A stretch of DNA of 64,000 bases from an uncultured Odoribacter sp. (GTDB lineage: Bacteria; Bacteroidota; Bacteroidia; Bacteroidales; Marinifilaceae): assembly GCA_934725835.1 (NCBI GenBank), contig CAKVCR010000001.1:4276-68275 (forward strand), read 5' to 3'. The notes beneath the pieces are model-generated. The model was given only the letters and a program-made list of their open reading frames with translations, was not told the origin of the DNA and ran no database searches. Shown one piece after another: positions 45,400 through 56,042 of the stretch (position 1 is its first letter; each line of letters starts with the position of its first letter). Both the position numbers and the translations under genes were made by a program.

Positions 45400-46434
45400 A
45401 TGGGTAGAACAACAATTTATAACAAAATTACAAACGAAGAATCTATCAAGAAAATCAATCCAAACAATAAACAGCTTTGTGAAGATTTTCTTGAATATCT
45501 TGCGTCTATTGATCGTGCCCCTTCCACAATTAACGGGTATAGAAATGACCTTGAAATTTTCTTCTGCTGGAACTTAGAGTACAACAACAATAAATTTTTT
45601 GTTGATATCAAGAAACGTGAGCTTGCACGATTCCAGGGATATGCAATCAATGAATGGGGTTGGAGTCCGAAAAGAATTCGTAGGGTAAAATCTGCTATCA
45701 GTAGCATGTCAAATTATATTGAAAATATTTTACAGGACGAAGACGAAGATTTTGAGAATTTCCGCTCTATCATTGGAAAGATTGAATCTCCGAAGAACGA
45801 AGCTGTTCGTGAGAAAACCATTATCCCAGATGATGATGTAGATAAATTTCTGGATAAATTGGTTAGTGAAGAACGATATCAACAGGCATGTGCTTTTGCT
45901 TTGGCTGCAATGAGCGGTGCTAGAAAATCAGAATTGTTGAGATTCAAAGTTGAATACTTCAATGAAAACAACATTGTCTATGGCGGTCTGTATAAAACTC
46001 CTAAGATTAAAACTAAGGGAGCCGGTAAGATAGGTAAACAGCTCAATAAATATGTGCTTTATGAGTTTAAGAAATACCTTGATTTATGGATGGAGCAACG
46101 CAAGAAACAAGGTATTGAGAGTGAATGGCTTTTCGTACATAGATGCGGTGATGGTTCATATGCACAAATGAAAGTCAGTACCCTTGATAGTTGGGCGAAC
46201 ATCTTCTCAAATGAATTAGGTGTGGATTTTTACTGGCACTGCATGAGGCATTATCTCAATACAAAATTATTGAAGCTGAATATCCCGGCAAATGTCGTTC
46301 AGGAATTTTTCGGATGGAGTAGTTCGGATATGGTTAATCTTTACAACGATAGTGAGGTTTCCGAAGAATTCAGTAAGTATTTCACAAAAGATGGAATTGT
46401 TGAAGGTAAGAGTTCGTCTTTAAGTGATTTATAA
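45400..46434 (+). CDS. tyrosine recombinase / integrase (XerC/D-like)
   Basis: N-terminal SAM-like core-binding region (STINGYRNDLEIFFCW). Catalytic signatures SGARKSELLRF (Arg), HCMRHY (His-x-x-Arg) and W-x-n-LYND (Tyr). Confidence 0.8.
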   Translation: MGRTTIYNKITNEESIKKINPNNKQLCEDFLEYLASIDRAPSTINGYRNDLEIFFCWNLEYNNNKFFVDIKKRELARFQGYAINEWGWSPKRIRRVKSAISSMSNYIENILQDEDEDFENFRSIIGKIESPKNEAVREKTIIPDDDVDKFLDKLVSEERYQQACAFALAAMSGARKSELLRFKVEYFNENNIVYGGLYKTPKIKTKGAGKIGKQLNKYVLYEFKKYLDLWMEQRKKQGIESEWLFVHRCGDGSYAQMKVSTLDSWANIFSNELGVDFYWHCMRHYLNTKLLKLNIPANVVQEFFGWSSSDMVNLYNDSEVSEEFSKYFTKDGIVEGKSSSLSDL

Positions 46435-46903: not shown

Positions 46904-49042
46904 ATGTCAGATTTTATTGCTCACGTTATAGCGGAGCTTGATACCGCTAAAGCACAGCAACAAATGAATGCTTTCACAAATGCAAAGCACAAAATTGATG
47001 TTGATGTAAATTTGGTGTCCAAAAACGGAAATATAAACGGCTACTTGAATCAGATAAAATCACAATTTGGTCAGGCTGGTAATGCTGCTGGCAATAATTT
47101 CGCCAATGCGCTGAATACTACAATGGGAAAAATTACCACTGCCAATTCAGCAAATACTATTAAAAACTTGCAACGTACACTTGCCGGATTTAAGTTTGAT
47201 AAGAGTCAGATTGCTACTATCACACAGTCTTTGGACTCTATGGATTTAGCTGTCCAAAAAGTTGATACAAGAATCCGTCAAGGTGGTCAATTACAGTTAC
47301 GTGTTACGGGAGTCGATGAATTAGGTCGTACCGTTACTGTACTGAAAGAATTTGATTCACAAGCCGGTAGATTGGTAAGTGTCGGAAAAGATATTCAACA
47401 ATCATTTAAGCAGATGTTCACTACTGCTGATGTTTCAAAACTGAATGCTGATATTTCTACACTTGATGCCGGATTTGTGAAATTAAAAGGTGATACAAAT
47501 AATTATTCATCAGAGTTGTCAAAATTAAGATCCGATTTATCAAACATAAATAATGTAAGTGGATTAGATAGACAACAAGCTGAGTTTGAAAGAATAACTC
47601 AGGAAGTCCAACGATTAAAAGTTGCATACAAAGAAGCAAAAGCTGAAAATGTATCTTTGGCTGCGTCACAGCAATTATTGTCTCAAAAAACTGTATTAGG
47701 TAATCAAATCGAGACATGGATGAACCGTAATACAAAAGCTGCAAAAATATACAAAAATGAGCTGACAGAATTAACTTCACAACTTTCTAAGGTTGAGAAT
47801 GGAACACAATTAAAAGCAGTTTCTCAGGCATTTACTCAGTTAAAGACTACTGCTGCTGCATCTGGTAATCTTGGAAAAAGTGTATTCACAACATTAAAAG
47901 ACAACTTTACAAGTCTTAGTCCTTTATTCGGAATGGGAGCAATGATTAACACTACCATTCGTGGATTAAAGGACATGTATTCAAATGTTGTGGATATTGA
48001 TAGTGCCATGACAGAGCTTAAAAAAGTTACAGATGAAACGGATTCTGCATATTCAAGTTTCCTTTCAAATGCCTCAAAGCGTTCTGTTGAACTTGGTACT
48101 ACTATTACCGACTATGTAAATTCCACAGCGAGTTTCGCACGACTTGGATATACTATGTCCGAAGCCAAAGAGCTTGCAGAGGTAGCGAATATTTATAGTG
48201 TTGTTGGTGATGAAATTTCTAGCATTGATGAGGCAAGTTCCAGTGTAATTTCTACATTAAAGGCATTTGGAATTCAAGCCAACGATGCTATGTCAATCGT
48301 TGATAAATTCAATGAAGTAGGTAACAGATTCGCAATCAGTTCAGGCGGTATTGGTGAAGCCTTAACAAGATCTGCTTCTTCAATGTCTGCTGCCAATAAC
48401 ACATTGGATGAATCAATTGCTTTGATTACTGCTGCAAATACAGTCGTACAAGATCCGGCAAAAGTAGGTAACGCATTTAAGACAATCTCTATGAGAATTC
48501 GTGGTGCGACCACAGAACTTGAGGAAGCTGGACTTGAAACTGACGGTATGGCTGAATCAACAGCAAAACTTCAAGCTGAAATCAAGGCACTTTCTGGTGT
48601 TGATATCATGCTTGATAAAGACACTTTTAAATCTACATATCAAATTATGGACGAGCTTTCAGAGAAATGGCAAGACCTTACCGATATCCAACAGGCATCT
48701 ATCACAGAGTTGCTTGCCGGAAAACATCAAGGTAATGTAATGTCTTCACTTATGAACAATTTTGATATTGCCAGACAAGCACTTGAAGTTTCGATGAATT
48801 CCGAAGGTTCTGCTATGGAAGAGCATGAAAAATGGATGGAATCTATTGAAGCTAAAGTAAACCAGCTTAAAGCTGCCTGGGAAGGACTATCAAACTCCTT
48901 CCTTGACTCTGGATTTGTCAAAGGTGCTGTTAGTGGATTGACTGGGCTTGTTCAAGTAATTGATACGCTTATAAATGAAATTGGTGCAGTTCCTACTATA
49001 TTAACAGGAGTCGGAATTGCTGCATTTGTAAAGAACCTAAGT
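46904..49042 (+). CDS. tail tape measure protein, exon 1 (TP901-type core)
   Basis: 713 codons with GGGGAGG RBS. FARLGYTMSEAKELAEVANIYSVVGDEI...FAISSGGIGEALTRSASS...AKVGNAFKTISMRIRG is the TP901-family TMP core. In-frame TGA at 49043-49045. Confidence 0.85.
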
Positions 49043-50078
49043 TGAGTGATAACATCACAAACTTTCCTAAATAAAGTTGGCTTAGTGTTATATCAAGTAA
49101 TCATCATTATGGCGATGTACACAAGATATAGCTATTGGGAGGTTCTATAAAATATCCCAAAGAAGTAAATACTGGAACACCTTAAAGCCAGATAAACTAC
49201 AACGTAATCGGTAACGATAAACGTGAATGTTGCGAAAGCAGAAAAAATTATCTGGATGGTCTATGCTGAGAAAAAGCAGTTTTATACTGTGCTACGGACT
49301 TTTATAATAGGCAATCAGTAGGACGCACGCCCATATGTTTATGAGCATGAATCCTCAGAGACTACCCATTCTTGGAGTTATGACACGCCTTAGTTGTTAT
49401 AGCTTTTAATGTATAGTGAATAATATATTTGTAAATTTAGTATTATTCCTTGCCAGATCGCCGGGAGGCACATAATAAATTTACCATCATTATTGATTGT
49501 TTGGTTTCCATTTGTGACCACAATTTCCACATATGTTCACAACTTTACCACTACCAATAAAGCCGAGCATAATGGAATATCCTCTTGTTGTAGTCGTGGT
49601 AGAGGTTGAGCCACATTTCGGACATTTTAATGTATTTTTGTTTATTGGTTGTATACTGTTTATACGTCCATTTCCTACTCTTTTATATGATCCGTCAAAT
49701 TCTTTTGGCACTGCATGAGTTTCTAATATAATATTTAGAAGTTGTTCTGCAGCATAAATAGAGATAGTTTGGCATTGACCAAAAATCCACCCTTTTAATT
49801 TTTTCTGCTCATCAGGAGTCATATTAGGGTAATCATCAATTTTATTCAATGCTTCACGAAGATCACGGGGTACTCCGTCAATAAGGCAGAATCCATCTGG
49901 TACTTCTTCTACTGTTGGTAATGGGAAACCGCAATGTATACACTGTTTTGATTTATCAGAAATCATGTTATTACATTCCGGGCATTTAATCATAGACATA
50001 CAATCACCTTCCTTTATAATCATACAATAATAATGTATCACACTTATCAAGACTTTTCAATATGTTTATAAAATAAAG
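49043..50078 (+). mobile_element. putative group I self-splicing intron in the tape measure gene
   Basis: Guide AGTTGGCTTAG (49075-49085) is complementary to the ligated junction CTAAGT|CAACT (49037-49042 + 50079-50083), with G:U at U49042. G50078 precedes the 3' splice site. The join is in frame. R-like TCAGAGACTAC at 49355-49365. GNRA hairpins at 49207-49218 and 49230-49241. Confidence 0.6.
49490..49999 (-). CDS. double zinc-ribbon protein encoded antisense inside the putative intron
   Basis: AAGGAAGGTG RBS before ATG 49999 ([11 protein letters not shown]...CIHCG; C-terminal CPKCGS...CGNCGH). No LAGLIDADG, GIY-YIG or HNH motif was recognised. Confidence 0.65.
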
Positions 50079-53000
50079 CAACTACAAAATTTAGGAAATG
50101 TTGGAAAAGTCTTTTTAGACCTTAAATCATACGCTTCTGCTTGCGAAGCGACAATGACAGCAATGGACTTCTCTCAAATTGGTTCATCATTGAGTCAATT
50201 TTCTGCCGAAGCTATTGCTGCTGGTGCAAGTATGGCAAGCCTTTCTGCAGAACAAACGGCTGCTGCTTTAGCTGCTGCTGGATATAGTTCAATAGAAACG
50301 GCTGCTGCAATGGCAACGGCTGGATATGATGCTGCAACTGTTGCTGCTGCATTGTCAACACAAGGACTTACTACTGAGCAAATCGCCGGTGCTATGTCTG
50401 CCACTCAATTTACAGCAAGTCAAATCGCTGCTGCTTTAGCTGCTCAAGGGGTTGGAGAATCTGCAATTATCGCAGCTTTGGAAGCAACAGGCTTGAGTTC
50501 TGCGGAAGCTGCTGCTGCTGTTACCGCTGGAACAATGGCTGCTGCAAATGGTACGGCTGCTGTTGCAACGGCTGGTCTTGCTGCTTCTTTGAAAGCTGCT
50601 GCTGCCGGATTAGCAACATTCTTACTTACTAATCCCGTAGGTTGGGCTATTCTTGCTGCTGGTGCTATTTTTGGTGTCGTAAAAGTAGTTGATGCTTTGA
50701 CAGAATCTTTTGATGAAGCGTGCGACAAAGCAAGTGAAGCAAGAAGTACATACGAAACAGCACTAAATGATGTTAAAGATGTAGAAAGCAAACAAGATTC
50801 TTTAAGATCAAAAGTTGAAGAATTGGCAACAGAACATGGTGTTACTTTTACAGATGAAGATACCATTCAGGATATTATCAATAAACTGAAAGAACTTAAT
50901 CTTTCTGCTACCGATGCTCAGTCTTTATCTGCATTGGAAACAACAAACGCCCAGTTATCTTCGCAGTTAGCAATAAAACAGAAAATTGCAGAATATGACC
51001 AACAAGAAGCTGCTAAAGCTGCAAACAATGTTCTTAATAAAAACCGAACATGGGGTACAGGTGAATATGATGTAGATATGTATTCTGGCACATCATATGA
51101 GAAAATGCAGTCTGGTACAATTGTTGATGAAACATTATCTAAGCGTGAAAGACTTACATCTGTTGAACAACAATTAACTGACTATTATAAACAGCAACAA
51201 GATCTCATTGATAGCGGACAAGACAAAACTTCTAAATGGTATCAATCTGCTACAGAATACGAAAAAGTTACCGGCAATATTAAGGATTTAGAGAAAGAAC
51301 GTGACTCTCTTACTTCTGATATTAAAGATAACCTTAGTGTTATTTCCGATAACTATGATTCTCTGTTGAATGAAAATGGAGAAGCACTTCCTGGATTTGA
51401 GAAAGAAAAAGAAAAAATAGATAGTCTTTATGATTCTGTTCTTGATGCAAGCGATGCAAACCAACAGTTGTCAGAATCGGAAAGTGAAGCTGCTGACAGT
51501 GCAAAGAAAGTTTCAGATATTTATAGTCAAGCAAGTGCGTCTATAACTCAGACTGCTGATGCTGCTATGACTGCATCACAAACATTGATTTCTGGTATAA
51601 GTGCTGCCCAAGAAGCTATTGCTGGACAGCAAAATGGAAAATCTATATCCCTTGCTGATTTTAATTCAGATGAGTTAAAAGATTATCAAGGTGCGCTTGA
51701 ATATGTAAATGGTACAATGCAGTTGAACGCCGAAAAGGTAAGAGAAATTGCAAAAGCAAAAGCCGATGAACAGGTTGCCATTAACAATTCAAATAAAGCA
51801 TTAGAACAAGCGAAGTATCTTGAAAATGCAAAAGAGATAGAGCAGTTAAGAGCTTCTCTTGCGAGTGCTTCTGATTCAGAAAAAGCAAGTATTCAAGAGT
51901 CTATTGATGCTTTGCTTGCCGAAAATAGTGCTATTGCAGATACATGTAAACAATATGATTTATTGTCAACATCTATTCAGGAAGCCGTTGGTTCATATCA
52001 GAATTGGCTCAATGCTCAAGGTGGTTCTGATTATGGAGATATGGCAAATGATGCTGTAAGTGCTATTCAGAGGATTAGAGACACTTATGATTCAAACTCT
52101 GATGTATTTGGGGATTTTGGTTCAAAAAAATTTGAAGCTGCCATTGATTTCATTGTACCAGATTCAGTTGGTGGTGACGATTTAAGTGCAATTGAATCTT
52201 ACATGTCTGATTTCAAGCAGTATTTGAAATTTGATGATAATGGTGCTGTTGATGGTCTGAATATTGACAAATTCTTGGAGAATTCTGTTAATGCCGGACT
52301 TATGAAATACAGTGAAGATGATGGTTTCCAGGTTCTCGGTGGAAAGAAAATGGAGGACTTCGCAGAAGGTCTTAATATGTCTTCTGGAATGGTTCAGGCA
52401 TTCTTTGATGAATTACAGTTAAAAGGTGCTGATTTCGACTGGGGCGATGAGGCTGTCAAAACTATCGGTGACTTAGCCGTTGAAGCAAATGAAGCTGCAG
52501 AATCTCTGAGACAGGTTGACGGAAACAGTGATTTAAAAATTAAAATGGATGTTTCCGATTTGTCCACCACAGAAGAACAGATTTCTGCTTTGGATGCTAC
52601 TATTGCGGAAATGGATGCTGTAAAAGCACGACCAGACGTTGATGCTTCAAGTATTGAAAATGCAAATTCTGTTATTCAATACTGTCTGACTCAGAAACAA
52701 CTTCTTTCTCAGCCAGATGTTATGCGTGTTGATACTTCACAGGTCGAAGGTGAAATAAGCAATGCTATCTCACTTTTACAACAGTTCCAAACTGCTACAA
52801 ACGACCTTGAAATTAAACAAAAAGTCGGTGCTGATACTACAGAGGCAGAGTCTAAAGTCAACTCTTTAGCTTCTGAAATTGAGGGTATTTCACCAGATAT
52901 TAAGGCAAAATTGGACATTGATTCTACTTCTGTAGATTCAATTAAAAGTTCTATTGCTGGATTATCTGCTGAAACAATCAATGTAAAGGCAAATGTTGAT

Positions 53001-56000
53001 GCTTCTGCAATTGAGGGTTATAATCCAGATTCTAAAAAATGTGATGTAATCTATGATCCGAAAACAGATGCTTTGCCGGAATCATTTGATGCAATTAACC
53101 GTGATGTAAACTATGTGCCACATACGGGCAGTTTGCCGGAATCTTTTACAACTCTTACACGTTATGTAAATTATGTAAAGACTGGTGCTGTTGATGTAAA
53201 TGGTACAGCACATGTTTCTGGTACTGCAAAAGCCGGTGGTGACTGGGGTACTGCTCCGGGAGGTAAAACACTTGTCGGGGAGCTTGGACGAGAAATCGTT
53301 GTAGATCCGCACACTGGAAGATGGTATACAGTTGGTGACAATGGTGCTGAGTTTAGAGACATACCTGCCGGTGCTATCGTTTTCAATCATGTACAATCAG
53401 AATCCTTGTTAGAGAATGGTTATGTTGCTGGTCGTGCTGCTGCTCTTGTTAGTGGTACAGCACTTGTTACTGGTGGTTATAAACCGTATAAACCTTCTTC
53501 TTCATCTACAAGTAAAACATCTTCAAAGAGTTCATCAAAATCTAGCAGTGGTTCTTCTGGAAGTAAATCATCTAGTAGTAGATCAAGTGGAAGTTCATCA
53601 AAATCATCAAGCTCTAGTTCAAATAGTTCTTCTGAAAAAGATTTTGAACAGACATTTGACTGGATTGAAATTGCGATAAATAGAATCAGTGAAGCTATTG
53701 ACAGGGTAAAAGTAAAAGCAGAAAGTGCGTTCAAAACTCTTACCAAACGTAACAATGCTGCTGCCGAAGAAATCTCTTTAATTACTGATAAAATCAACAC
53801 TCAGAACAGTGCGTATACTAGATATATGCAACAGGCTAATTCTGTCGGTCTTTCATCTGATTGGCAAAACAAAGTAAAGAATGGCACGATTGATATATCT
53901 ACTATCACTGACGAAGATTTATCAGATAAGATAAAGGATTTCCAGGAATTTTATGAAAAGGCGATTGAAGCTAAAGATGCTGTGGCAGATTTGCATGAAG
54001 AAATCGCCAAGTTATATGCTGACAGATTCAGTAACATTTCCACTGATTTTGATAACCAGTTGGCTCTTGTACAACATTTGACTGATACATATAATACTGG
54101 GCTTGATACACTGGAAGCAAAAGGCTTAAAAGGAAGCAAGGTTTATTATCAAGCTCTCCAAAAAGCTGAGAAAGAAAATCAGGCAATTCTCCAAAAAGAA
54201 TTAGTTGATTTAACGGAATCTTTCAATCAGGCAATGGCTTCTGGTGAAATCGAAAAGGGTTCTGAGCAATGGTATGAGATGCAGAAAAGCATCAATGATG
54301 TCAAAGAGGCAATTGATGAATCTAATCTCTCACTGCTTGAATATCAGAAAACAATGCGTGAGCTTGATTGGGAATATTTTGATTATATGGAAGACCGTAT
54401 ATCAAATATTACCGATGAAGCAGATTTTCTCATTGACTTAATGGCAAATGGAAAGTTATTTGATGATAAAGGTCAAATGACAGATACAGGCATGGCAACT
54501 ATGGGATTACATGGACAGAATTACAATGTCGATATGGCACAAGCTGACCAATATGCCAAAGCTATCAAAGAGTTAAATGCGGAAATCGCCAAAGATCCAT
54601 ATAACACTGACCTCATCGAACGTAGACAGGAACTTCTTGAATTACAGAGAAAGTCAATTCTTGCTGCCGAAGATGAGAAGCAGGCTATGATTGATTTGGT
54701 AAAGGACGGAATCGAAGCACAGCTTGATTCTCTCAAAGATTTGATAGATGCCTATACGGATTCATTGGATTCAGCCAAAGACCTCTACGATTATCAGAAA
54801 AAGGTGAAAGAACAGTCTGACGAAATTGCTTCTTTACAGAAACAGTTGTCAGCTTATGCCGGAGATAATTCTGAGGAAACTAAAGCTACCATTCAGAAAA
54901 TCCAGGTTGATTTATCTAAAGCTATGGAAGAATTGCAGGAAACAGAATATGAGCAATATATTTCTGACCAGAAGAAATTGTTGGACGAATTATACACTGA
55001 GTATGAAACAATCCTCAATGCACGACTGGACGATGTAGATGCACTTATTTCTGATATGATTGATACAATCAATGCAAATTCTTCTTCTATCGGTGATACA
55101 ATCCAACAGGAATGTGCGAATGTTGGATATACTCTCACAGAATCCATGAATTCTATTTGGACGAATGAGGGTGGTGCTTTTGCTGTTATCTCTAAATATG
55201 GCGATCAGTTCTTAACACAGAATACTTCTACATTGAATGCGATTCTTGGTATTAAGGCTTACACTGACGCTTTAATTGCAAAGGCAGATGCAGAGGCGAA
55301 AGCTAAAGCGGAAGCTACAAAGAAACAGACGGAAGCAAGTAAACCAGCGAGTCAACCTTCAAAACCGTCAAATAATACTCCTTCTACACCGTCAAAACCG
55401 GCACGAACTGATAAAGACTACTATGGTGTTGCTCTTGCTATATGGAATGGTAACTATGGTTGGGGAACTGGAAATACCAGAGTTAGCCGTTTACAAGCTA
55501 AAGGTTTTGATGCCAATAGAGTTCAAAGTATCGTAAATCAGATGGGCAGAGAAGGTTATGTGCGTTCTGGTGCATGGGTTGGTAGATATCAAGGAATCCG
55601 TGACCTTTCACCATATCATTACAATAAATATGCTGTCGGTCTGAAAAATGCTCCGAAAGCTGAAAATGCATGGGTAAACGAGCTTGGTAATGAGTCTATT
55701 ATCAAGCCATCTGAAAATGCTATTGTAACTCATATTGCGAAAGGTGACAGTGTACTTACCGCCGATGCCACACGGAATATATGGGATATGGCAAGTGATC
55801 CATCTGACTTTATCAATAGGAACTTGCTTACCAATGGATTGATGTCTGGTATAGGAAACATTGGTGGAAATACATTCGGTGACATAAATATTGATATTCC
55901 TATTGAATATGTACAAGATTATAATGATTTTGTAACTCAATTGCAAAAGGATAATAAATTTGAACGAATGATTCAAGATATGACCATTGGACGTATCAAT

Positions 56001-56042
56001 GGTGGAAGTAAATTTGCTAAAGGTAAATATAGATGGACGTAA
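50079..56042 (+). CDS. tail tape measure protein, exon 2 (frame open from 50034; first ATG 50154)
   Basis: Ala-rich and hydrophobic segments (GWAILAAGAIFGVVKVV), TLVGELGREIVVDP motif, Ser-rich linker, long coiled coils and a CW_7-like VALAIWNGNYGWGTGNTRVSRLQAKGFDANRVQSIVNQM. There is no RBS before ATG 50154. Confidence 0.8.
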   Translation, partial: QLQNLGNVGKVFLDLKSYASACEATMTAMDFSQIGSSLSQFSAEAIAAGASMASLSAEQTAAALAAAGYSSIETAAAMATAGYDAATVAAALSTQGLTTEQIAGAMSATQFTASQIAAALAAQGVGESAIIAALEATGLSSAEAAAAVTAGTMAAANGTAAVATAGLAASLKAAAAGLATFLLTNPVGWAILAAGAIFGVVKVVDALTESFDEACDKASEARSTYETALNDVKDVESKQDSLRSKVEELATEHGVTFTDEDTIQDIINKLKELNLSATDAQSLSALETTNAQLSSQLAIKQKIAEYDQQEAAKAANNVLNKNRTWGTGEYDVDMYSGTSYEKMQSGTIVDETLSKRERLTSVEQQLTDYYKQQQDLIDSGQDKTSKWYQSATEYEKVTGNIKDLEKERDSLTSDIKDNLSVISDNYDSLLNENGEALPGFEKEKEKIDSLYDSVLDASDANQQLSESESEAADSAKKVSDIYSQASASITQTADAAMTASQTLISGISAAQEAIAGQQNGKSISLADFNSDELKDYQGALEYVNGTMQLNAEKVREIAKAKADEQVAINNSNKALEQAKYLENAKEIEQLRASLASASDSEKASIQESIDALLAENSAIADTCKQYDLLSTSIQEAVGSYQNWLNAQGGSDYGDMANDAVSAIQRIRDTYDSNSDVFGDFGSKKFEAAIDFIVPDSVGGDDLSAIESYMSDFKQYLKFDDNGAVDGLNIDKFLENSVNAGLMKYSEDDGFQVLGGKKMEDFAEGLNMSSGMVQAFFDELQLKGADFDWGDEAVKTIGDLAVEANEAAESLRQVDGNSDLKIKMDVSDLSTTEEQISALDATIAEMDAVKARPDVDASSIENANSVIQYCLTQKQLLSQPDVMRVDTSQVEGEISNAISLLQQFQTATNDLEIKQKVGADTTEAESKVNSLASEIEGISPDIKAKLDIDSTSVDSIKSSIAGLSAETINVKANVDASAIEGYNPDSKKCDVIYDPKTDALPESFDAINRDVNYVPHTGSLPESFTTLTRYVNYVKTGAVDVNGTAHVSGTAKAGGDWGTAPGGKTLVGELGREIVVDPHTGRWYTVGDNGAEFRDIPAGAIVFNHVQSESLLENGYVAGRAAALVSGTALVTGGYKPYKPSSSSTSKTSSKSSSKSSSGSSGSKSSSSRSSGSSSKSSSSSSNSSSEKDFEQTFDWIEIAINRISEAIDRVKVKAESAFKTLTKRNNAAAEEISLITDKINTQNSAYTRYMQQANSVGLSSDWQNKVKNGTIDISTITDEDLSDKIKDFQEFYEKAIEAKDAVADLHEEIAKLYADRFSNISTDFDNQLALVQHLTDTYNTGLDTLEAKGLKGSKVYYQALQKAEKENQAILQKELVDLTESFNQAMASGEIEKGSEQWYEMQKSINDVKEAIDESNLSLLEYQKTMRELDWEYFDYMEDRISNITDEADFLIDLMANGKLFDDKGQMTDTGMATMGLHGQNYNVDMAQADQYAKAIKELNAEIAKDPYNTDLIERRQELLELQRKSILAAEDEKQAMIDLVKDGIEAQLDSLKDLIDAYTDSLDSAKDLYDYQKKVKEQSDEIASLQKQLSAYAGDNSEETKATIQKIQVDLSKAMEELQETEYEQYISDQKKLLDELYTEYETILNARLDDVDALISDMIDTINANSSSIGDTIQQECANVGYTLTESMNSIWTNEGGAFAVISKYGDQFLTQNTSTLNAILGIKAYTDALIAKADAEAKAKAEATKKQTEASKPASQPSKPSNNTPSTPSKPARTDKDYYGVALAIWNGNYGWGTGNTRVSRLQAKGFDANRVQSIVNQMGREGYVRSGAWVGRYQGIRDLSPYHYNKYAVGLKNAPKAENAWVNELGNESIIKPSENAIVTHIAKGDSVLTADATRNIWDMASDPSDFINRNLLTNGLMSGIGNIGGNTFGDINIDIPIEYVQDYNDFVTQLQKDNKFERMIQDMTIGRINGGSKFAKGKYRWT

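What the first reader, a model, noticed from the sequence alone, without database searches (positions are those of the whole stretch)
49043..50078. Tape measure gene appears split by a 1,036-nt group I intron that carries an antisense zinc-ribbon gene
Seen in sequence: the TP901-type tape measure ORF ends at TGA 49043-49045. TMP-like sequence resumes 1.1 kb later in a frame that is open from 50034. Its first ATG (50154) has no Shine-Dalgarno, although almost every other gene here has a GGAGG-type RBS. An 11-nt internal guide AGTTGGCTTAG (49075-49085) is the exact reverse complement of the junction CTAAGT|CAACT made by joining 49042 to 50079. The one exception is the canonical G:U wobble at the exon-terminal U, giving contiguous P1 plus P10. 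The proposed 3' splice site follows a G (50078). The join is in frame and removes exactly the stop codon, giving ...VKNLS|QLQNLGNVGK.... Further intron-like elements are TCAGAGACTAC (49355-49365), which resembles the group I R element, AATGTATAGTGAA (49408-49420), which is S-like, and two GNRA-capped hairpins. Established knowledge: group I introns use such an internal guide sequence, an exon-terminal U:G pair and an omega-G. Phage group I introns often begin with an in-frame stop. Inference: the spliced gene would encode a TMP of about 2,700 aa. The intron interior holds a well-signalled ORF on the opposite strand (49490-49999) with no recognisable homing-endonuclease motif, which is an unusual arrangement.
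Basis: partly seen in the sequence, partly recalled or inferred. Interest (0 to 1): 0.85.

Follow-up and report, generated by a model that had tools for sequence, protein, structure and literature searches.

The report
Group I intron splitting tape-measure gene
The phage's tail tape-measure gene is interrupted by a 1,036-base self-splicing-type (group I) intron that carries a small zinc-ribbon gene on the opposite strand; introns in such genes are already known, but a backwards, non-nuclease passenger gene is unusual.

Summary
The 1,036-nt insert at 49043-50078 descends from a group I intron. It shares an 81.6%-identical P5 extension with the nrdE intron of Enterococcus phages, which scores as RF00028. 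Other members of the same RNA family pass Rfam's curated threshold. Its P3, P4, P5a-c and P8 helices and the P3/P7 pseudoknot are supported by covariation against a diverged copy at the same site in a related phage. Most related phages (52-69% identity) have one continuous tape-measure ORF through this position.

The P1/P10 guide pairing is weak evidence on its own. It becomes convincing because five independent insert lineages at the homologous codon each carry a guide that matches their own exons.

Caveats: Rfam does not detect the window's copy. Its P7 3' strand is interrupted by a 30-nt hairpin, so splicing competence is inferred, not shown.

The antisense ORF belongs to a widespread family of unknown function (phrog_2546). 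An 85%-identical homologue is free-standing in integrative elements, so it looks like an accessory gene and not a homing endonuclease.

Group I introns in prophage tape-measure genes are already published. This is a new variant of a known kind and of moderate interest.

The parts
46904..49042 (+). Exon 1 of the tape-measure gene (713 codons)
   Evidence: PF10145 PhageMin_Tail, 82 bits. Homologues are 66-97% identical.
49043..50078 (+). Group I intron, 1,036 nt. It begins with the in-frame TGA and ends with the omega-G at 50078.
49037..49042 (+). P1 5' strand (exon CUAAGU, terminal U paired to G49080)
   Evidence: Six of six positions pair. The site is homologous to the 5'SS in L003, L005, L007 and L139.
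49075..49085 (+). Internal guide sequence: P10 part 49075-49079 and P1 part 49080-49085
49058..49072 (+). Stretch in the P1 loop that is 87% complementary to exon 2 at 50089-50103; a possible extension of P10
   Evidence: Inverted repeat I3. Inference only.
49087..49132 (+). P2 hairpin (GUUAUAUC / GAUAUAGC)
   Evidence: Eight of eight positions pair. The A49092G variant keeps a G:U pair.
49160..49164 (+). P3 5' strand; pairs with 49369-49373
   Evidence: Two pairs changed on both sides relative to L003.
49170..49175 (+). P4 5' strand; pairs with 49315-49320
   Evidence: One compensatory pair.
49188..49255 (+). P5a-P5b-P5c extension with GUAA and GAAA loops. It contains the family motif CUACAACGU...CGUGAAUG.
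   Evidence: 81.6% identity to the nrdE intron of Enterococcus phages. Seven pairs with changes on both sides across these helices. More than 120 viral loci carry the motif.
49329..49346 (+). P6 hairpin
   Evidence: The C49331U variant restores a pair in five of the seven copies.
49358..49364 (+). P7 5' strand (the R element, GAGACUA)
   Evidence: Identical in L003 and invariant across the family alignment.
49369..49373 (+). P3 3' strand
49376..49404 (+). P8 hairpin, 10 bp
   Evidence: 100% of cells paired. Variants at 49380 and 49382 are wobble-preserving.
49414..49449 (+). P7 3' strand UAGU (49414-17) and CC (49448-49), separated by an inserted 30-nt hairpin (49418-49447)
   Evidence: Removing the hairpin gives UAUAGUCC, the same as L003. 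As a plain linear strand, the two pairs that include the G-binding G:C are unpaired.
49451..49470 (+). P9-like hairpin (UGCC...GGCA)
   Evidence: A similar UGCC...GGCA hairpin is visible in L003 (read from the sequence).
49490..49999 (-). Antisense cargo ORF, 169 aa: zinc ribbon, helical middle domain, zinc ribbon
   Evidence: PF13240; phrog_2546; 318 homologues; free-standing homologues; no nuclease fold.
50032..50060 (-). Promoter-like site for the cargo ORF (TTGAAA-17-TACATT with TG). A GGAAGG ribosome-binding site lies at about 50005-50012.
   Evidence: This is a consensus match only.
50079..56042 (+). Exon 2 of the tape-measure gene (1,987 codons plus stop)
   Evidence: In-frame join with no internal stop. 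CW_7 repeat.

Best explanation
The tape-measure gene of this SPbeta-like phage of gut Clostridia is interrupted by a 1,036-nt group I intron. The 5' splice site follows U49042 and the 3' splice site follows G50078.

The ribozyme core occupies 49043-49470 (P1-P2-P3-P4-P5abc-P6-P7-P8-P9, with no P7.1/7.2). The rest of the intron is a passenger cassette on the opposite strand. It holds a promoter-like site, a ribosome-binding site and a 169-aa double zinc-ribbon ORF, placed downstream of P9 where phage introns often hold homing-endonuclease genes.

During late transcription the intron would fold and use the guide at 49075-85 to align both exons. It would excise itself by the usual two guanosine-dependent transesterifications. 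This removes the in-frame TGA and gives mRNA for one 2,700-aa tape-measure protein.

The passenger is most likely an accessory gene transcribed from its own promoter, for example in the lysogen, and not a mobility enzyme.

Shown: the homology, the helices, the covariation, the interruption of an otherwise continuous gene, and the guide-exon matches in several lineages. Inferred: catalysis, the exact 3' site, and expression and function of the passenger.
For: 1. Homology. Window 49166-49277 is 81.6% identical to unannotated DNA inside the split nrdE gene of eight Enterococcus herelleviruses, in the same orientation. That insert scores 41.9 bits, E = 1e-8, on RF00028.

2. Family identity. The shared motif occurs in more than 120 viral loci. 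Their R and S elements are canonical. Members pass the RF00028 gathering score at the motif position, including L033 (65.1 bits) and L054 (54.9 bits), which share the window's architecture.

3. Covariation. Against L003/L104 (about 70% identical, same gene site), the explicit group I topology has 96.5% of cells paired, versus 30-45% when the partners are slid. Eleven pairs changed on both sides, versus one in the slid controls. None of 500 shuffles reached the observed values.

4. Variation within the lineage. Among seven copies that are 96-99% identical, six of the seven substitutions that fall in the helices I annotated keep or restore pairing.

5. Interruption. Of 80 related viral loci, about 67 have one continuous ORF of 1,700-2,300+ aa through this site and 11 are interrupted there. 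The spliced junction aligns with the continuous proteins without a large indel.

6. Guides. With the 5'SS fixed at the homologous codon, contiguous P10-P1 guides are found 38-49 nt downstream. Shuffles reaching the observed score: window 21/1000, L003 2/1000, L007 0/1000, L139 7/1000, L005 0/1000. Each guide matches that lineage's own exons.

7. Exon 2 has no SD-type start near the junction.
Against: - RF00028 gives no hit on the window copy, even at E <= 10 on 1.6 kb.
- The P7 3' strand is not contiguous. Read linearly, the G-binding G:C pair and its neighbour are unpaired in all window-lineage copies. They form only if a 30-nt hairpin bulges out of the strand, and I know of no precedent for that.
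- The guide pairing alone is reached by 11% of shuffles under a liberal search, and a second candidate 3' site exists at 50051.
- No intron-less allele or spliced junction was found in the viral or JGI metagenome contigs.
- No junction-spanning protein appeared among the best 120 hits.
- No guide was found for the related inserts in L131 or L167/L170.
Confidence: 0.78

Rival explanations
1. The insert is a splicing-dead relic of a group I intron. The tape measure is made as two polypeptides: a 713-aa N-terminal part, and a C-terminal part started at ATG 50154 or 50163.
For: The P7 3' strand is interrupted at the guanosine-binding pair. RF00028 gives no hit. No spliced junction was found in public contigs. 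Every close homologue in the protein database is called as a separate protein of about 700-800 aa.
Against: Helices are kept by compensatory and wobble changes both between and within lineages. The guide still matches both exons, and does so in five lineages. There is no SD-type start for the C-terminal part. Most relatives make one continuous protein. Removing the hairpin restores the canonical UAUAGUCC exactly, so P7 can still form.
Confidence: 0.12
2. It is a functional group I intron, but the 3' splice site is after G50051 (ATCAAG|ACTTT) and not G50078. This would add nine residues (TFQYVYKIK) to the protein.
For: It is the second-best candidate in the scan. It uses the same P1, and its 5-nt P10 is separated from P1 by 2 nt (score 9.5 versus 10.5).
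Against: The 50078 site gives a contiguous P10-P1 guide. It lies at the position homologous to the well-supported L003 site (S|QLQNLGNVG versus A|SAIKTLGGMG). It is flanked by further intron-exon complementarity, 49058-72 with 50089-103. Its junction length is closer to that of the continuous homologues.
Confidence: 0.07
3. It is not an intron. It is an accessory-gene cassette, or a recombinase-driven invertible segment, inserted between two naturally separate tail genes.
For: The ORF is antisense with its own promoter-like site. A tyrosine-recombinase-like gene lies just upstream of the tape-measure gene. The cargo differs between relatives, being a zinc-ribbon protein or a lipoprotein-like protein.
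Against: About 430 nt of the insert is a covariation-supported group I core. No long inverted repeats flank the segment. The recombinase gene is also present next to some continuous tape-measure genes, as the ORF of about 366 aa upstream in L135-L137 suggests (inference from ORF size). The flanking ORFs are two halves of what is one protein in relatives.
Confidence: 0.03

Closest known systems
Group I introns in the tape-measure genes of Bacillus cereus-group prophages (TMP-IVS1/2/3; Tourasse and Kolsto 2008, PMC2504315)
   Same: They are self-splicing-type introns of the IA subclasses in the same kind of gene in temperate phages of Firmicutes. Different introns are adapted to one site through matching P1/P10. 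Many copies lack a complete homing-endonuclease gene.
   Different: The phage lineage and insertion site differ. No sequence comparison with those introns was made here. The passage read describes no opposite-strand passenger gene.
nrdE group I intron of Enterococcus Kochikohdavirus phages (phiEF17H, Sw5)
   Same: This is the closest sequence relative found: 81.6% identity over the P5a-c extension. The overall helix order is the same and P7.1/7.2 is absent.
   Different: The host gene is ribonucleotide reductase. The ORF, where present, is a sense-strand HNH endonuclease. P7 is contiguous and canonical, and RF00028 detects it.
IStron CdISt1 of Clostridioides difficile (group I intron with an IS605-family element in its 3' end)
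   Same: It is a IA2-type ribozyme at the 5' end with a non-homing-endonuclease cassette embedded in the 3' part, found in Clostridia (PMC3984707).
   Different: The IStron cargo is transposases that mobilise the element. Here the cargo has no transposase or nuclease signature, and here it lies on the opposite strand.
Nuclear rDNA group I introns with antisense homing-endonuclease genes (e.g. position L2066, PMC9548176)
   Same: A protein gene lies on the strand opposite to the ribozyme inside a group I intron.
   Different: Those are eukaryotic rDNA introns whose cargo is a His-Cys box endonuclease. Here it is a phage protein-coding gene and the cargo is not a nuclease.

Membership tests
Group I intron (Rfam RF00028 Intron_gpI) | Match to the curated covariance model at or above its gathering score | tested here: not met
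   No RF00028 hit on the window at gathering, or at E <= 10 on 48800-50400. Sequence relatives do match: L001 at 41.9 bits, L033 at 65.1 and L054 at 54.9 bits.
Group I intron (Rfam RF00028 Intron_gpI) | P1 helix formed by the 5' exon end and an internal guide, with a U:G pair at the splice site | tested here: met
   CUAAGU (49037-42) pairs with GCUUAG (49080-85), six of six, with U49042:G49080. The site is homologous in four other lineages.
Group I intron (Rfam RF00028 Intron_gpI) | P10 pairing of the guide with the 3' exon, and a terminal omega-G | tested here: met
   AGUUG (49075-79) pairs with CAACU (50079-83), and G50078 precedes the junction. A competing site exists at 50051.
Group I intron (Rfam RF00028 Intron_gpI) | Conserved core P3-P8 with the P3/P7 pseudoknot, supported by covariation | tested here: met
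   96.5% of cells paired versus 30-45% in slid controls. Eleven pairs changed on both sides. None of 500 shuffles reached the observed values.
Group I intron (Rfam RF00028 Intron_gpI) | Intact guanosine-binding G:C pair in P7 | tested here: inconclusive
   Read linearly, the partner of G49360 is G49418, which does not pair. If the 30-nt hairpin 49418-49447 bulges out, C49448 and C49449 restore the canonical UAGUCC.
Group I intron (Rfam RF00028 Intron_gpI) | Guanosine-dependent self-splicing | not testable with these tools
   This needs in vitro transcription and splicing, or RT-PCR.
Homing endonuclease gene (LAGLIDADG, GIY-YIG, HNH, His-Cys box, PD-(D/E)xK, EDxHD), considered for the antisense ORF | A recognisable nuclease domain | tested here: not met
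   Pfam finds only zinc ribbons. PHROGs places it in phrog_2546, function unknown. NCBIfam gives nothing for the window protein. The AF2 model (pLDDT 71) has no PDB match at E <= 0.001.
Homing endonuclease gene (LAGLIDADG, GIY-YIG, HNH, His-Cys box, PD-(D/E)xK, EDxHD), considered for the antisense ORF | Association with intron or intein insertion sites rather than ordinary gene neighbourhoods | tested here: not met
   An 85%-identical homologue (P0129) and more distant ones (P0168, P0218) are free-standing genes in integrative elements next to HTH regulators and resolvases.
IStron | IS200/IS605-family transposase genes embedded in the intron's 3' end | tested here: not met
   No transposase family was hit.
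Phage tape-measure protein | PhageMin_Tail domain in a very long protein located between the tail-tube/chaperone genes and the distal tail genes | tested here: met
   PF10145 at 82 bits in exon 1. The neighbourhood is YomU/V/W/X-like in relatives. A DUF6558 tail protein lies downstream.

The most novel reading that the evidence does not exclude
In this family of Clostridia phages, group I introns at one tape-measure codon act as harbours for opposite-strand passenger genes with their own promoters. The passengers are double zinc-ribbon proteins in most lineages and a lipoprotein-like protein in one.

The intron would let a lysogeny-expressed accessory gene sit inside an essential late gene at no coding cost. 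Alternatively, the zinc-ribbon protein could be a new kind of site-specific mobility or splicing factor for this site. The recurrence of the same protein architecture with several different ribozymes at one site is compatible with either reading.
Probability: 0.3. Interest if true: 0.65.

Novelty: new variant of a known kind. Interest (0 to 1): 0.45.

Why it matters
For annotation, this lineage's tape measure should be read as one protein of about 2,700 aa. The first half alone is recorded 507 times in one 90%-identity protein cluster. Reading it as one protein changes the predicted tail length and avoids calling two spurious genes.

For intron biology, it adds a recurrent insertion hot spot where at least five insert lineages show guides that covary with their exons. 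It also shows a ribozyme that appears to tolerate a hairpin inserted into the P7 strand at the guanosine-binding pair. And it shows passenger genes that are antisense and are not nucleases. If the passenger is expressed from the prophage, this would be a way of hiding an accessory gene inside an essential late gene.

Tried and rejected
- **Rfam on the window.** No group I hit at gathering threshold or at E <= 10. The same was true for L003, L005 and L007, both as whole loci and as narrow stretches. I concluded that RF00028 is insensitive to these copies, because relatives in the same family pass it.
- **Guide pairing as stand-alone evidence.** Rejected after the Monte Carlo control gave 214 of 2000 shuffles.
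- **Intron-less allele or spliced junction.** Nothing found with AACCTAAGT N{0,30} CAACTACAAAATTTAGG in viral contigs or JGI metagenome contigs.
- **MAFFT alignment of 17 distant family members.** Too scrambled in the variable hairpins for pair counting. I used the A1/A2 set instead.
- **Custom covariance model.** Not built. The core exceeds the practical size limit, and the shared motif would have made a hit circular.
- **Cargo as a defence gene.** No meaningful PADLOC hits.
- **Cargo as a nuclease.** No support from profile searches or from fold search.
- **Invertible cassette.** No flanking long inverted repeats.
- **Guides for the L131 and L167/L170 inserts.** None found.

Full report
**Observation.**
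- ORF1 (46904-49045, 713 aa) carries a PhageMin_Tail domain (PF10145, 82 bits) and stops at TGA 49043.
- A long ORF resumes downstream. Its frame is open from 50034, and its first ATG at 50154 has no GGAGG-type site in front of it.
- AGTTGGCTTAG at 49075-49085 is the reverse complement of CTAAGT|CAACT, with one G:U at the exon-terminal U. G50078 precedes the proposed 3' junction.
- Joining 49042 to 50079 gives a stop-free 2,700-codon frame reading ...VKNLS|QLQNLGNVGK.
- An ORF with a good ribosome-binding site lies on the minus strand at 49490-49999. It hits only zinc-ribbon families.

**Is the pairing more than chance?** On its own, hardly.
- I let the 5' splice site vary over 55 nt, the guide over 200 nt and the 3' site over 120 nt, requiring only an in-frame, stop-free join. 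Under those rules 214 of 2000 shuffles of the intron's 5' region reached the observed score.
- A second candidate 3' site appeared at 50051.
- With the 5' site constrained to the homologous codon, the figure is 21 of 1000.
RF00028 gives no hit on the window at its gathering score, or at E <= 10 on 1.6 kb.

**Homology to real group I introns.**
- A megablast of the region against phage genomes returned one thing. Window 49166-49277 is 81.6% identical to unannotated DNA in eight Enterococcus herelleviruses.
- In these phages the match lies, in the same orientation, in a gap that splits the class Ib ribonucleotide reductase gene. The gap also holds an HNH endonuclease gene in phage Sw5 and no ORF in phiEF17H.
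- The ORF-less gap scores 41.9 bits (E = 1e-8) on RF00028. The shared block is the large insertion in P5.
- A pattern taken from that block (CTACAACGT...CGTGAATG) occurs in more than 120 viral contigs.
- The sequences around it show the classical blocks AAUUGCUGGAA / CAAUCAGCAG / GGUUCAACGACUA / GAAGAUAUAGUC.
- Sixteen such loci searched at Rfam's curated threshold gave RF00028 hits at the motif position. Among them are L033 (65.1 bits) and L054 (54.9 bits), which share the window's sub-architecture: a long P5 extension and no P7.1/7.2.
- The window insert has every block in the same order, but it is a divergent member.

**The gene really is interrupted.**
- Proteins 66-97% identical to exon 1 are all about 700-800 aa. 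After a conserved SFKN[VI]G-like motif they end in unrelated junk of several kinds, which looks like read-through into inserts.
- Contigs of three such relatives show the same layout: N-terminal part, about 1 kb with an antisense ORF, then a C-terminal part of about 1,900-2,100 aa. The gene neighbourhood is SPbeta-like, with YomU/V/W/X.
- Among 80 related viral loci, 11 are interrupted at this site. About 67, at 52-69% identity, have one continuous ORF of 1,700-2,300+ aa running through it.
- The proposed spliced junction aligns with those continuous proteins without a large indel.

**Covariation.**
- The copy in L003/L104 sits at the same site in a phage whose exon-1 protein is 84% identical. 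Its core is about 70% identical to the window's.
- RNAalifold on four window-lineage copies plus these two recovers P3, P5a-c and P8, with 15 pairs kept through changes on both sides.
- I then scored the explicit group I topology, including the P3/P7 pseudoknot. It gave 96.5% of cells paired, against 30-45% for slid partners. Eleven pairs changed on both sides, against one in the slid controls. None of 500 shuffles reached the observed values.
- Within the window lineage (seven copies, 96-99% identical), six of the seven substitutions that fall in the helices I annotated keep or restore pairing. Examples are C49331U in P6, and A49380G and G49382A in P8.

**Splice sites supported by other lineages.** With the 5' site fixed at the homologous codon, contiguous P10-P1 guides lie 38-49 nt downstream in five insert lineages, and each matches its own exons:

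| Lineage | 5' exon end | Guide | 3' exon start | Shuffles reaching score |
|---|---|---|---|---|
| window | CTAAGT | AGTTG-GCTTAG | CAACT | 21/1000 |
| L003 | ATTGCT | AATAGCAGA-GGCGGT | TCTGCTATT | 2/1000 |
| L007 | TGTCGGT | AAATAT-GCCGACA | GTATTT | 0/1000 |
| L139 | GTCGGT | (not recorded) | TTTTT | 7/1000 |
| L005 | CGTGGGT | TTGAATAT-GCTCACG | ATATTCAA | 0/1000 |

- The L003 junction (ISSIA|SAIKTLGGMG) is positionally homologous to the window's (KNLS|QLQNLGNVG). This favours 50078 over 50051.
- The L007 junction FKNVG|VFKTIENDA mirrors the continuous FKGIGFVKLNADADG of L134.
- Next to P10, window 49058-72 is also 87% complementary to exon 2 at 50089-103.
- No guide was found for L131 or for L167/L170.

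**The P7 problem.**
- Every other member of the sub-family has UAUAGUC as the P7 3' strand. All window-lineage copies read UAUAGUG.
- In the pair count, the two P7 pairs that include the guanosine-binding G:C are unpaired in those copies.
- The sequence suggests why. UAUAGU is followed by a perfect 8-bp, 30-nt hairpin (49418-49447) and then CC. Without the hairpin the strand reads UAUAGUCC, exactly as in L003.
- A canonical P7 can therefore still form, provided the hairpin bulges out between the U and the C. I do not know a precedent for this, so splicing competence is inferred, not shown.

**The passenger ORF.**
- In seven of eight interrupted loci examined, the antisense ORF has the same plan: an N-terminal zinc ribbon, a variable middle, and a conserved C-terminal CPxCGS...G[FL]xG...CxxCGxxW ribbon. 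In L005 it is instead lipoprotein-like.
- The window protein falls in phrog_2546, of unknown function. In L003 the middle part resembles the L7/L12 C-terminal domain.
- It has 318 database relatives. One that is 85% identical (P0129) is a free-standing gene in a Tn916-like element, between an HTH regulator and a resolvase and near a Lit-like peptidase. P0168 and P0218 are free-standing too.
- No defence model matches. An AlphaFold model (pLDDT 71) matches only generic zinc ribbons, none at E <= 0.001.
- A promoter-like site with an extended -10 lies on the minus strand at 50060-50032, inside the intron's 3' end.
- The passenger is therefore best read as an accessory gene and not a homing endonuclease. 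Its function is unknown.

**Rivals.**
- A dead intron with a two-piece tape measure is possible, given P7 and the lack of any observed spliced junction. It is disfavoured by the maintained helices and guides and by the missing start signals for exon 2.
- An invertible cassette is unlikely. A tyrosine-recombinase-like gene lies upstream, but no long inverted repeats flank the insert.

**Comparison with what is known.**
- Group I introns in prophage tape-measure genes were described in the Bacillus cereus group. There are three positions, and different introns are adapted to one site through identical P1/P10 (PMC2504315).
- A composite intron with non-endonuclease cargo in its 3' end is known as the clostridial IStron (PMC3984707).
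- Antisense endonuclease genes are known in nuclear rDNA introns (PMC9548176).
- My searches found no report of a phage group I intron carrying an antisense, non-nuclease gene. The searched library is limited to open-access papers.

**Verdict.** This is a real group I intron of a known kind in a known kind of host gene, with two unusual features: the antisense accessory passenger and the hairpin in P7. It also sits at a recurrent insertion site. Interest is moderate. Relatives occur as prophages in gut Clostridia.

Noticed in passing
window 27379-31685: An array of 20 tRNA genes on the + strand, unusually many for a temperate-type siphophage genome segment.
   Followed up: no
window 45400-46434: A tyrosine-recombinase-like gene (PF00589 plus the SAM-like N domain) lies inside the tail module, just upstream of the tape-measure gene. 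It is conserved in that position in the relatives L003-L007. Its role there is unexplained.
   Followed up: partly
window 49418-49447: A 30-nt AT-rich perfect hairpin is inserted exactly between the U and the C of the P7 3' strand. It is present in all seven window-lineage copies and absent from L003. It might be a tiny palindromic insertion.
   Followed up: partly
window 49058-49072 and 50089-50103: There is a 15-nt, 87% complementarity between the P1 loop and exon 2, adjacent to P10 on both strands. It may help to bring the distant 3' splice site to the core.
   Followed up: no
window 50200-50450: Exon 2 starts with 42-nt (14-aa, Ala-rich) tandem-like repeats (D1-D3). A CW_7 cell-wall-binding repeat lies at residues 1795-1822 of the exon-2 product.
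   Followed up: no
L005 8245-9224; L007 7918-8997; L139 2476-3666: The inserts at the same tape-measure codon in other phages have highly significant P10-P1 guides, but Rfam does not recognise them even in narrow searches. L007 shows a P4/P5-like AUGCUGGGAACUUGG...CCAAGGGUCAGCAGG. They are probably group I introns of other subtypes.
   Followed up: partly
L005 8654-9118 (minus strand): In this relative the antisense passenger is not a zinc-ribbon protein. It is a 154-aa protein with a signal peptide and a lipobox-like LVGC. It could be a surface lipoprotein, for example for superinfection exclusion. That is speculation.
   Followed up: no
L213-L215 4001-4504: A protein 85% identical to the window's passenger sits in a Tn916-like integrative element, beside an HTH regulator, a resolvase and a Peptidase_U49 (Lit-like) gene.
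   Followed up: partly
L096 1800-4121; L033 4371-5549; L054 587-1527: Several loci from the motif scan carry three or four separate RF00028 hits within 1-4 kb, so these genes are densely packed with introns.
   Followed up: no
L131 4144-5232 (approx.): A phage whose exon-1 protein is 87% identical carries a different ribozyme with the same P5 motif. Its P7 is canonical but covaried (CAGACUG / CAGUCG), and its zinc-ribbon passenger is homologous to the window's. No P1/P10 guide could be identified.
   Followed up: partly
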